This document shows positions 6,098 to 8,071 of a DNA stretch of 64,000 nucleotides, in pieces. How positions within the stretch are numbered: position 1 is the stretch's first letter; every line of letters begins with the position of its first letter. Source of the DNA: a virus. Location of the stretch: IMG/VR virus record IMGVR_UViG_3300009147_000001, positions 1 through 64,000 of that record; one strand, 5' to 3'. Under the pieces are notes generated by a model. The model was given only the letters and a program-made list of their open reading frames with translations. It was not told the origin of the DNA and did no database searches. A program made the translations under genes and the position numbers.

Positions 6098-6436
6098 GTG
6101 GAATGGGACAGCTATATCGTACAAATAAATGACGACGATACCTTTACGATAGAGTTAGTCCCGGCTGACCACGAAGGTCCCACGCTATACACTGAAATTT
6201 GGCAAAAAGACATCATTACCGACGAGCAGATGGGTCCTCTCCAAGAGGGGACCTATCTGAAAGTCTATGCAGATCCACCTCGAATAATCCAGAGGTACAT
6301 CCCACCACCAACCGAAGAAGAACTGGCTACCATAGAAGCGTGGGTTAAGGAAAAATCTGCATTCTGGCTAGAAGTAGAGGAAGAACAAACCAAATATATC
6401 CGATCAATAATGGTCGGGTCGACCAAGGAGACACTC
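6098..6436 (+). CDS. Acidic hypothetical ORF running in frame into Ro60 without a stop
   Basis: GTG 6098 just after the NlpC stop; frame open to 8071. Confidence 0.45.
6389..6430 (+). promoter_or_regulatory. Putative Ro60-binding operator hairpin next to the Ro60 Shine-Dalgarno
   Basis: ACCAAATATATCC-GATCA-ATAA-TGGTC-GGGTCGAC-C-AAGGAG: both Y-RNA strand motifs in swapped order. Confidence 0.6.
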
Positions 6437-8071
6437 ATGTCTAAGGCATTACAGGGATTTTTGGATGATGCAAACAAGCCGATCCCACAGAGCAAAGCTG
6501 CCGACGAACGTCAGGTAGCAAACAACGCTGGTGGTTTCACCTTTACCGTGGATGATCGCGCTCGGCTAGAGCGGTTCCTCATTCTCGGTACTGATGGGGG
6601 CACCTATTACGTAGATCAGAAGACGCTGACTGAGGACAATGCGACGTTTGTCATTGATCTGATTCAGCGCGATGCCCCACTGGTTATCAACACACTCGTC
6701 GAGATTTCTCGGGACGGTCGGGCACTTCGCCAATCGCCAATTATCTTTACCTTGGCGCTGGTGTTCAAGTATGGTAATGATGAAGCTAAGAGTGTGGCCC
6801 GGAGCATCTTCAACGATGTTATCCGCATCTCTACTCATCTTTTTGAGTTTAATCAGTATATAGAGTCTCTGGGCGGCTGGGGCCGGGCGAAGCGCTCTGC
6901 CGTGGCCGGGTGGTACACCGGTCGGGACGCGGCTGCACTGGCCTACCAGGCGGTCAAGTACCGCCAGCGTAACGGCTGGACCCACCGCGATGCCCTGCGG
7001 TTGGCCCACCCCATCGGCGTGGACGCAGCAGTGATCAACTTCATTTTGGGCAAGGACGAGCGGACCGCAGCAGCCACCACTGATGGACCAGCGATAATTC
7101 GTGGATTCAAGTTTGCGCAGGAAGCACAGACTGTTTCTGAACTACTTGGTACTGCATTGACGGATTATCCAAATCTGCCATGGGAGGCGCTGCCCACTCA
7201 ATTCCTTACCGAACCAGAAGTGTGGAAGAAGCTGTTCTACAATGGTCAACTCAACGGTCAGGCGCTTGTGCGTAATATTACTCGGCTCAGCCGTATTAAT
7301 GCTTTCAATGATATGGTGTTCGCTCGGGATTACGCTAATCGCTTGGTTGATGGGGAGATGATCCGCCGCACCCGGTTGCACCCGCTCAATTACCTTAATG
7401 CGCTGGTCGTGCATCAAGTGGGCCAGATCGATCGCAAGAATCATACGTACGGCTGGGGAATTAGCCGTATCAAGAACTGGACCACCGTTCCGGTTATTGT
7501 CGATGCCCTCAATAATGGCTTCTATGCTGCCTTTAAGCACCTCGAATCAGCCAACAAGCGCACCATGCTTGCCTTGGATGTTTCTGGGTCGATGTCGGCT
7601 ATGGCGGGTTCGGGACTAGATCTGAGCTGTGACCAGGTAACTGCGGCGATGTCGATGGCAACTGCTCGGACCGAACCATGGTATCAGATTACCGCTTTTG
7701 ATACTGGTATTAAGGACCTGGGAATTACTCCGGGACAAAACCTAGCTGAGGTGCTACAACGAGTACATATTAACAATGGTGGTGGCACCGACTGCTCATT
7801 GCCCATGACGTGGGCGTTGAAGACCAAGACTCAAGTGGACACCTTTGTGGTGTACACGGACAATGAGACCTGGGCCGGTCGAATCCACCCGCACATCGCT
7901 TTGCAGGAATACCGGCAGAAGATGGGCATTGATGCAAAGCTCGCCGTGGTAGGTATTGCTGCGACAAAGTTCACGATTGCTGATCCGAGCGACCGTGGTA
8001 TGATAGACCTCGTCGGGGCTGACTCGAACCTACCCGCGATTATTGCTAATTTCTCGGCTGGTCGAGTCTAA
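6437..8071 (+). CDS. rsr: Ro60/Rsr TROVE-domain RNA-binding protein with vWA domain
   Basis: QVANNAGGFTF, RLERFLILGTDGGTYY, KYRQRNGWTHRDALRLAHP, LALDVSGSM, GGGTDCSLPM, VYTDNETW; RBS AAGGAG. Confidence 0.97.
   Translation: MSKALQGFLDDANKPIPQSKAADERQVANNAGGFTFTVDDRARLERFLILGTDGGTYYVDQKTLTEDNATFVIDLIQRDAPLVINTLVEISRDGRALRQSPIIFTLALVFKYGNDEAKSVARSIFNDVIRISTHLFEFNQYIESLGGWGRAKRSAVAGWYTGRDAAALAYQAVKYRQRNGWTHRDALRLAHPIGVDAAVINFILGKDERTAAATTDGPAIIRGFKFAQEAQTVSELLGTALTDYPNLPWEALPTQFLTEPEVWKKLFYNGQLNGQALVRNITRLSRINAFNDMVFARDYANRLVDGEMIRRTRLHPLNYLNALVVHQVGQIDRKNHTYGWGISRIKNWTTVPVIVDALNNGFYAAFKHLESANKRTMLALDVSGSMSAMAGSGLDLSCDQVTAAMSMATARTEPWYQITAFDTGIKDLGITPGQNLAEVLQRVHINNGGGTDCSLPMTWALKTKTQVDTFVVYTDNETWAGRIHPHIALQEYRQKMGIDAKLAVVGIAATKFTIADPSDRGMIDLVGADSNLPAIIANFSAGRV

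What the first reader, a model, noticed from the sequence alone, without database searches (positions are those of the whole stretch)
6389..6439. Permuted Y-RNA Ro60-binding helix against the Ro60 ribosome-binding site
Seen: ACCAAATATATCC (6389-6401) matches the 3' strand of the Y RNA at 638-772 (ACCACATATATCC) at 12 of 13 nt. GGGTCGAC (6416-6423) is identical to its 5' strand motif. They are in swapped order, joined by hairpin TCCGATCA-ATAA-TGGTCGGG, which rebuilds the same helix one base before AAGGAG and ATG 6437. Inference: Ro60 represses its own translation when Y RNAs are saturated, like ribosomal-protein mimic operators. I know of no description of this for Ro60.
Basis: partly seen in the sequence, partly recalled or inferred. 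Interest (0 to 1): 0.82.

Follow-up and report, generated by a model that had tools for sequence, protein, structure and literature searches.

The report
Y-RNA mimic hairpin before phage Ro60
Just before the ribosome-binding site of this soil phage's Ro60 gene is a small hairpin that copies, with its two strands swapped, the stem by which Ro60 is thought to hold the phage's Y RNAs. The same element sits before about 30% of related Ro60 genes, so Ro60 probably limits its own synthesis, though nobody has tested this.

Summary
I also found the element at the same place in distant relatives.

**Conservation**
- A descriptor taken from Y RNAs finds it within 50 nt of the rsr start in 34 of 133 non-redundant leaders (1.7 expected).
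- It also finds it in 20 of 47 metagenome leaders fetched afterwards (0.48 expected).
- The hairpin covaries: 98-100% of cells are paired, and 4-5 of 6 pairs show compensatory changes.
- Positions the descriptor did not fix also fit the Y-RNA consensus.
- The leader's GGG or GAG type follows that of the same genome's Y RNAs.
- The motif ends a median of 12 nt before the start codon, next to or overlapping the Shine-Dalgarno sequence.

**Reading**
Autogenous translational control by Y-RNA mimicry is the best reading (about 0.6). Binding and repression are untested.

**Particular to this window**
The "leader" is also 113 codons that run in frame into Ro60, from GTG 6098 with no stop. A second metagenome study has the same sequence. 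No other locus examined shows an in-frame extension homologous to this one.

**Prior reports**
I found no paper or Rfam family describing this. The scan has already noted the same kind of element on other DNA: phages, actinomycetes, cyanobacteria and an Asgard archaeon.

The parts
6389..6401 (+). 5' arm region that copies the 3' strand of the Y-RNA Ro-binding helix (ACCAAAUAUAUCC). UAU precedes the N'-U-C-C closing nucleotides.
   Evidence: 12 of 13 identical to 755-767. Fits the genome's Y-RNA consensus YAYAUCC. A at -2 (41/54) and U at -1 (49/54) are conserved in other rsr leaders, although the descriptor did not require them.
6398..6419 (+). Hairpin of 9 bp (A6398-U6419 to A6406-U6411) with loop AUAA. 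It closes the helix on the side where Y RNAs have their free 5' and 3' ends.
   Evidence: MFE folds. The equivalent stem in other leaders is 98-100% paired with compensatory changes.
6416..6423 (+). GGGUCGAC, a copy of the Y-RNA 5'-strand motif (GNCGA, the proposed Rsr/Ro60 contact).
   Evidence: Identical to 643-650. Motif GNCGAAN0-1G as defined in PMC4201824. Model R2, built without this window, places its best hit of the whole window at 6388-6429.
6425..6430 (+). Shine-Dalgarno sequence AAGGAG of rsr, one base after the motif and 6 nt before the ATG.
   Evidence: In other leaders the motif ends a median of 12 nt before the start codon.
6437..8071 (+). rsr (Ro60) gene, 544 codons plus stop. 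TROVE and Ro60 vWA domains.
   Evidence: Pfam. Homologues align from residue 1 or from 12-26 onward. Matches D. radiodurans Rsr 2NVO at E 5e-111.
6098..6436 (+). 113 codons in frame with rsr and without a stop. GTG 6098 lies one base after the stop of the NlpC/P60-LysM gene. This stretch contains the whole element.
   Evidence: ORF list. Coding score in the rsr frame is positive throughout. No indel in a contig from a second study. No homologue found.
638..772 (+). Y RNA (YrlA-like) whose terminal stem the element copies.
   Evidence: Fold of -39.8 kcal/mol, z -2.9. Weak Rfam YrlA and sbRNA matches.
2394..2522 (+). Second Y RNA with GGGUCGAA on the 5' strand and ACAUAUCC on the 3' strand.

Best explanation
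The element is a cis-acting operator on the rsr message. It presents the Ro60-binding module of the phage's Y RNAs: GGGU paired with AUCC, followed by CGA opposite UAU. A short hairpin closes it on the side where a Y RNA has its free ends.

The module ends 14 nt before the AUG and 2 nt before the Shine-Dalgarno sequence. Ro60 that is not occupied by Y RNA would therefore dock there and keep the 30S subunit off, which lowers its own synthesis. Abundant Y RNAs would compete for Ro60 and lift the block.

- **Shown here:** the sequence and fold, the position, conservation across distant rsr genes, covariation, and matching with the cognate Y RNAs.
- **Inferred:** Ro60 binding, the direction of the effect, and competition by Y RNA.

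In this genome the site also lies inside an in-frame upstream reading frame. The control would therefore act on the internal start at 6437. Ribosomes coming from GTG 6098 would melt the hairpin.
For: **Sequence and fold**
- Both strands of the Y-RNA module are copied, 20 of 21 nt, and rebuilt by a stable hairpin.

**Conservation at the same place**
- All 34 hits of model R1 with E<0.01, in 1.05 Mb, lie directly 5' of an rsr start.
- A descriptor taken from Y RNAs finds the element in 34 of 133 non-redundant leaders against 1.7 expected, P 8e-32.
- Out of sample, it finds the element in 20 of 47 leaders against 0.48 expected, P 1e-25.
- 16 of 17 hits of model R2 in unseen metagenome loci end 3-14 nt before the start or overlap it by 3 nt.
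- R2 was built without the window. Its top hit in all 64 kb is 6388-6429.

**Covariation**
- 97.8% and 100% of cells are paired. Five and four of six pairs change on both sides. Slid controls reach at most 57%.

**Positions not fixed by the descriptor**
- A at -2, U at -1 and A after CGR fit the Y-RNA consensus.

**Match to cognate Y RNAs**
- Permutation test gives P 0.001.
- Six leaders with GAG have 20 of 20 GAG Y RNAs, Fisher P 2e-4.
- Phages whose Y RNAs use GACUGA have leaders with GACUGA, GACUAA or GACUGU.

**Complementary pattern**
- Where the hairpin is missing, a canonical Y RNA usually ends within 100 nt of the start: 37 of 61 against 6 of 34.

**Published background**
- GNCGAA is the proposed Rsr contact (PMC4201824).
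- A Thermus phage Ro60 binds RNAs carrying CGAA from the noncoding region upstream of its own gene (PMC12135203).
Against: - There is no binding or expression data for any member.
- R2's hit in the window is weak by itself: 13.4 bits, E 0.25.
- About 70% of the rsr leaders examined lack the strict element. So do the window's nearest relatives L171, L219 and L233, at 56-61% Ro60 identity. L004, the nearest of all at 63%, has it.
- The nucleotide N of GNCGA often differs between a leader and its own Y RNAs.
- The leader copy lacks the inner stem that follows the module in Y RNAs.
- In this genome the site is inside a probable coding frame. Translation from upstream could override it.
- In a 171-nt context the fold is not better than shuffles (z -1.4), although the core hairpin persists.
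Confidence: 0.6

Rival explanations
1. Ro60 does bind the element, but the outcome is not repression. The bound protein or the hairpin could protect the 5' end of the rsr message after it is cut out of the long tRNA and Y-RNA precursor. It could mark where that cut is made. It could also load new Ro60 in cis. The effect on Ro60 output would then be positive or neutral.
For: rsr lies inside arrays of tRNAs and Y RNAs that are processed from polycistronic precursors (PMC4201824). Y RNAs need Rsr for stable accumulation. In the window the hairpin leaves the Shine-Dalgarno sequence unpaired.
Against: The motif is held at a fixed short distance from the start codon, median 12 nt, and often overlaps the Shine-Dalgarno sequence or encloses it in the loop. 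That is expected for occlusion and is not needed for 5' protection.
Confidence: 0.15
2. A factor other than Ro60 that also acts on Y-RNA stems recognises the element. Candidates are a processing nuclease or another phage protein.
For: Junctions between tandem Y RNAs form the same swapped-strand hairpin. A nuclease that separates array members could therefore see the same shape.
Against: In the junctions the conserved letters are explained by the Y RNAs themselves. In the leader, the conserved letters are exactly those proposed to contact Rsr: GNCGAA and the YAU opposite (PMC4201824). The element occurs with rsr across phages and several bacterial phyla that share no other obvious gene.
Confidence: 0.1
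3. The element is a leftover of a tandem Y-RNA junction, or of gene conversion from Y RNAs, and has no function of its own.
For: Tandem junctions give the same arrangement. The leader type follows the cognate Y RNAs, as copying would also produce.
Against: The element keeps its position within about 20 nt of the start across Ro60 proteins only 40-63% identical. The inner stem varies with compensatory changes while the module letters stay. In the window the inner stem (GAUCA/UGGUC) is unlike the Y-RNA outer stem (AACAC/GUGUU), so only the module was kept. No Y-RNA body adjoins it.
Confidence: 0.07
4. In this window only, the resemblance is a by-product of coding. The stretch encodes the linker of an N-terminally extended Ro60, and the match to the Y RNA is chance.
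For: The frame is open and looks coding through the element.
Against: A 12-of-13 match, an 8-of-8 match and a closing hairpin at the very place where many other rsr genes carry the element are not expected by chance. The extension has no homologue that could show protein-level constraint.
Confidence: 0.03

Closest known systems
Ro60/Rsr-binding helix of bacterial and phage Y RNAs (YrlA, YrlB, Yrn1; motif GNCGAAN0-1G; Rfam RF02553)
   Same: Same conserved letters on both strands (GGGUCGA and YAUAUCC) and the same four closing pairs as the Y RNAs of this genome. Probably the same protein partner.
   Different: The strand order is swapped. The end that is open in a Y RNA is closed by a 4-nt loop. 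There is no inner stem and no tRNA-like or effector module. It is part of an mRNA at the ribosome-binding site, and there is no Rfam hit at this place.
Autogenous translational operators that mimic the protein's main RNA ligand: E. coli ribosomal-protein leaders (S8, L1, S15, L20), the thrS operator that mimics tRNA-Thr, and archaeal L7Ae binding a k-turn in its own 5' UTR (from general knowledge)
   Same: A copy of the ligand's binding site sits at the RBS of the protein's own gene. The expected logic is the same: free protein represses and the ligand competes.
   Different: No binding or repression has been shown for Ro60. The mimic is a circular permutation of the ligand's helix. In this genome it lies inside an in-frame upstream reading frame.
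Yrl1 and Yrl2 of Thermus phage phiLo (PMC12135203)
   Same: Small RNAs with a CGAA motif, taken from the noncoding region just upstream of a phage Ro60 gene. Both bind that Ro60 in gel shifts.
   Different: The authors describe them as ordinary Y-like RNAs with a 5'-3' stem around a bulge, and do not propose control of the gene. I could not get their sequences or their distance to the start codon, so equivalence is not tested.
Phage coat-protein and RegA-type operators (MS2 coat protein on the replicase start hairpin, T4 RegA and gp32; from general knowledge)
   Same: A phage RNA-binding protein occludes a hairpin or site at a start codon.
   Different: Those operators do not copy a separate noncoding RNA partner.

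Membership tests
Y RNA / YrlA (Rfam RF02553) | The 5' and 3' ends pair to form the terminal stem, with GNCGAA on the 5' strand upstream of the body | tested here: not met
   The motif letters are present, but the 3'-strand copy (6389-6401) precedes the 5'-strand copy (6416-6423), and a 4-nt loop closes the stem.
Y RNA / YrlA (Rfam RF02553) | An effector or tRNA-like module (T-arm and D-arm mimic) between the two strands | tested here: not met
   Only GAUCA-AUAA-UGGUC lies between the two strand copies.
Y RNA / YrlA (Rfam RF02553) | Scores against the family covariance model | tested here: not met
   No match at 6389-6439 even at E up to 10.
Autogenous translational operator by ligand mimicry | Lies on the protein's own message at or next to the ribosome-binding site | tested here: met
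   The motif ends 2 nt before AAGGAG and 14 nt before the ATG. The median distance is 12 nt in 54 other leaders.
Autogenous translational operator by ligand mimicry | Copies the sequence and structure of the protein's main RNA ligand | tested here: met
   20 of 21 module letters are identical to Y RNA 638-772 and the same four pairs form. Positions not fixed by the descriptor fit the Y-RNA consensus. The type follows the cognate Y RNAs.
Autogenous translational operator by ligand mimicry | Conserved with covariation among homologous genes | tested here: met
Autogenous translational operator by ligand mimicry | The protein binds the operator | not testable with these tools
   Needs a gel shift or CLIP. 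The only indirect support is phiLo Ro60 binding CGAA RNAs from upstream of its gene.
Autogenous translational operator by ligand mimicry | Binding lowers translation, and the free ligand relieves it | not testable with these tools
   Needs toeprinting and reporter fusions.
Ro60 / Rsr protein (TROVE + vWA) | TROVE HEAT-repeat ring followed by a Ro60-type vWA domain, full length | tested here: met
   PF05731 and PF25045. 2NVO at E 5e-111 over residues 14-544.

The most novel reading that the evidence does not exclude
Keeping a Ro60-binding helix at the ribosome-binding site of rsr is a general and so far undescribed homeostat that matches Ro60 output to the Y-RNA pool. It is built in two interchangeable ways: a swapped-strand mini-hairpin, or the last canonical Y RNA ending at the RBS. 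It is spread over phages and several bacterial phyla.

In this phage it additionally sits inside an in-frame upstream reading frame. Ro60 binding would then choose between a 657-residue extended form and the 544-residue form.
Probability: 0.45. Interest if true: 0.78.

Novelty: new member of a known kind. Interest (0 to 1): 0.68.

Why it matters
Ro60 and Y RNAs have been studied for 40 years, including as an autoantigen, but how cells or phages set the ratio of Ro60 to Y RNA is not known. A conserved copy of the Y-RNA docking site on the ribosome-binding site of rsr gives a concrete mechanism, and it can be tested with simple assays.

- **Defining the binding site.** About 75 non-redundant natural variants of the minimal hairpin were found here. 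They could define the bacterial Ro60 recognition site better than the Y RNAs themselves.
- **Annotation.** The element would add a missing cis-regulatory RNA family to annotation. Neither Rfam nor the GenBank records of cultured Streptomyces phages mark it.
- **Cultured systems.** Streptomyces phages such as Karp carry the element and can be grown, so experiments are feasible.

Tried and rejected
I could not fetch the DNA around the closest protein homologues P0003-P0008 by that route. I used scans of viral, genome and metagenome contigs instead.
- **Megablast against phage records** found nothing.
- **MAFFT alignment of the leaders** misplaced the 5' arm in 10 of 26 rows.
- **Models R1 and R2** lean towards the GCCC...GGGC-CGAAAGGA type. 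They miss or score poorly the AUCC...GGGU type of the window's nearer relatives L001, L004, L006 and L007. The regular-expression descriptor covers those.
- **The 113-residue extension** gave nothing usable:
  - An all-library HMMER search gave two hits to repetitive giant proteins. The one inspected (P0123) is low-complexity, so I do not count either as a homologue.
  - tblastn on all loci and on the genome found nothing.
  - The protein atlas found nothing.
  - Single-sequence AlphaFold gave pLDDT 42.7, which is uninformative.
- **The promoter and terminator scan** gave nothing on the + strand near the element.
- **Sequencing runs:** no RNA holder is listed, and all holders are rhizosphere metagenome DNA kept as contigs. 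Nothing can be said about expression or transcript ends.
- **phiLo sequences:** no supplementary files are held for the phiLo paper, and no Thermus phage matched in the phage collection. I could not compare Yrl2 with this element.
- **Two Ro60 reviews** (PMC10870794, PMC6542706) are not held.
- **R2's second hit** in the window (60008-60050, E 0.65) shows no start codon or Shine-Dalgarno sequence downstream. I dropped it.

Full report
**1. What is there**

The window is the first 64 kb of a 110,163-bp single contig. It has 47.8% G+C and 19 tRNA genes. It comes from rhizosphere metagenomes.

The Ro60 gene has TROVE and Ro60-type vWA domains. It matches D. radiodurans Rsr (2NVO) at E 5e-111. Its nearest relatives are 55-63% identical, among uncultured phage contigs and Streptomyces phages.

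- ACCAAATATATCC at 6389-6401
- GGGTCGAC at 6416-6423
- AAGGAG at 6425-6430
- ATG at 6437

The stretch folds into a 9-bp hairpin with loop AUAA. Its four outer pairs, AUCC with GGGU, are the same pairs that end the terminal stem of the Y RNA at 638-772. In both RNAs they are followed by CGAC on one side and preceded by ACCA(C/A)AUAU on the other.

**2. Is it chance?**

With at most one mismatch, the 13-mer occurs only at these two places in the window.

The genome holds at least 12 Y-RNA 5' halves with GGGUCGR. Most lie in an array at 101-110 kb. The rsr leader is the closest-spaced YAYAUCC...GGGUCGR pair in swapped order, and the only one with no Y-RNA body beside it. The resemblance is therefore to the consensus of the phage's Y-RNA family.

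**3. Relatives**

I fetched rsr loci from three collections:
- 83 viral-contig loci
- 80 loci from bacterial genome assemblies
- 80 metagenome loci

I predicted each rsr start by alignment to the window's protein and by the Shine-Dalgarno sequence.

Many leaders show the same design directly before the Shine-Dalgarno sequence or the start codon. It runs (A)U-N'-[C/U]-[C/U]-C, then a variable hairpin interior, then G-[G/A]-G-N-CG[A/G]-A. Examples are L001, L007, L209 and the cultured Streptomyces phage Karp.

*Covariance model R1.* It was built from 15 such leaders. In 1.05 Mb it gave 34 hits at E<0.01, and every one lies directly 5' of an rsr start. Its weaker hits elsewhere turned out to be junctions between tandem Y RNAs, which form the same swapped arrangement.

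*Descriptor.* I used a descriptor based on the Y-RNA core rather than on the leaders: G[GA]GNCG[AG] closed by four pairs across 3-16 nt.
- It is met within 50 nt of the start in 34 of 133 non-redundant leaders, against 1.7 expected (P 8e-32). That is 28 of 69 viral and 6 of 64 bacterial.
- I fixed the descriptor before fetching the metagenome loci. There it is met in 20 of 47 new non-redundant leaders, against 0.48 expected (P 1e-25).

*Covariance model R2.* It was built without the window. Its best hit in the entire window, with filters off, is 6388-6429. The score is weak (13.4 bits, E 0.25), but it is the top hit and sits at the predicted place. In unseen metagenome loci, 16 of its 17 hits end 3-14 nt before the rsr start or overlap it by 3 nt.

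**4. Structure and letters**

In the two model-fitted alignments:
- 97.8% and 100% of cells are paired.
- Five and four of six pairs carry changes on both sides.
- Partners slid by one to three columns pair in at most 57% of cells.

These alignments are fitted to the model's structure, so the counts lean towards it.

The N of GNCGA always pairs with the first nucleotide of the 5' arm (GC, AU or UA).

Three positions that the descriptor left free fit the Y-RNA consensus, which I derived from 240 canonical stems in the same loci:

| Position | Leaders | Y RNAs |
|---|---|---|
| -1 | U in 49 of 54 | pyrimidine in 91% |
| -2 | A in 41 of 54 | A in 63% |
| first base after CGR | A in 46 of 54 | A in 74% |

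The motif ends a median of 12 nt before the start codon. The Shine-Dalgarno sequence therefore follows within a few bases (CGAAAGGA is common) or lies in the loop (L007, L065, L084).

**5. Link to the cognate Y RNAs**

- Leaders resemble the Y RNAs of their own locus more than those of other loci at the variable positions (2.73 against 2.39 of 5; permutation P 0.001).
- All six leaders with GAG come from loci whose Y RNAs are all GAG (20 of 20). Leaders with GGG go mostly with GGG Y RNAs (Fisher P 2e-4).
- In L003, L029 and L031 the Y RNAs use GGACUGA, and the leaders carry GACUAA, GACUGA and GACUGU.

These tests do not correct for shared ancestry.

**6. A complementary layout**

Among loci without the hairpin, the last canonical Y RNA ends within 100 nt of the rsr start in 37 of 61. 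Among loci with the hairpin, it does so in 6 of 34 (Fisher P 8e-5). A Ro60-binding helix close to the rsr start seems to be the feature that is kept.

**7. What is special in this window**

The rsr frame is open from 6002. GTG 6098 lies one base after the stop of an NlpC/P60-LysM gene. The 113 codons from there to 6436 score as coding in the rsr frame all along, also when the rsr ORF is left out of training.

A contig from a second study covers 6063-6450 with one substitution and no indel. The fusion is therefore not an assembly slip.

The extension has no homologue, and no other locus encodes anything like it. Homologues start at the position of M6437 (MSKA), which has the strong AAGGAG.

Both a 657-residue and a 544-residue product are therefore likely. 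Here the operator is read through by ribosomes that start upstream.

**8. Mechanism**

The most economical reading is that Ro60 binds the element as it binds a Y-RNA stem and blocks the 30S subunit. This gives negative feedback that Y RNAs relieve by competition.

Published support is indirect:
- GNCGAA overlaps the sequences needed for Rsr binding, and Ro60 contacts mainly that strand (PMC4201824).
- A Thermus phage Ro60 binds two CGAA-bearing RNAs taken from the noncoding region upstream of its gene (PMC12135203).

The rivals are:
- Ro60 binding with a different outcome
- another factor that recognises Y-RNA stems
- a functionless relic of a tandem junction
- for this window only, coincidence within coding sequence

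The fixed distance to the start, the covariation, and the selective retention of only the module letters argue against the last three.

**9. Novelty**

Rfam has no family at this place. Full-text searches found no report of Ro60 or Rsr controlling its own message. Two reviews could not be read.

The kind of mechanism is classical. It is known for ribosomal proteins, ThrRS and L7Ae. I therefore file this as a new member of a known kind.

Earlier notes of this scan describe the same kind of element in other genomes. They agree with my reading, but they are not independent evidence.

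Noticed in passing
window 6098-6436: 113 codons with no homologue anywhere run in frame and without a stop into rsr, starting one base after the stop of the NlpC/P60-LysM gene. They predict an N-terminally extended Ro60 of 657 residues beside the 544-residue form.
   Followed up: yes
L128 978-1011, L159 4770-4805, L114 4781-4815, L010 4279-4316 and others: Junctions between tandem Y RNAs (3' strand of one, short spacer, 5' strand of the next) form the same swapped-strand hairpin. This is a likely evolutionary source of the leader element.
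   Followed up: partly
many loci, e.g. L046, L054, L107, L229, L244: Where the swapped hairpin is missing, the last canonical Y RNA often ends 17-40 nt before the rsr start codon.
   Followed up: partly
genome 95,695-95,709 (outside the window; L248 696-710): ACCC-UGAU-GGGU followed by CGA, then GAGGGAG and the ATG of a 64-codon ORF that overlaps the end of a 169-codon ORF. This is a second operator-like site or chance.
   Followed up: partly
window 2394-2522; genome 101-110 kb: A second Y RNA in the window, and an array of Y-RNA-like units at the other end of the contig. All share GGGUCGR and YAYAUCC. The array probably continues across the contig ends.
   Followed up: partly
window 1071-1151: A tRNA-Sec-like match below threshold (36.6 bits, gathering score 47), between a small ORF and the next genes.
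   Followed up: no
window 6410-6412: An in-frame ATG lies in the hairpin loop and 3' arm (AUAAUG). It has no Shine-Dalgarno sequence and is probably not used.
   Followed up: no
L165 (Mycobacterium phage Bxz1) 2340-2500: A small canonical Y-like RNA lies about 60 nt before the Ro gene. Nearer the start there is a degenerate CCAUGUU-CAC-AACCGAA stretch. It may be a weak version of the element.
   Followed up: no
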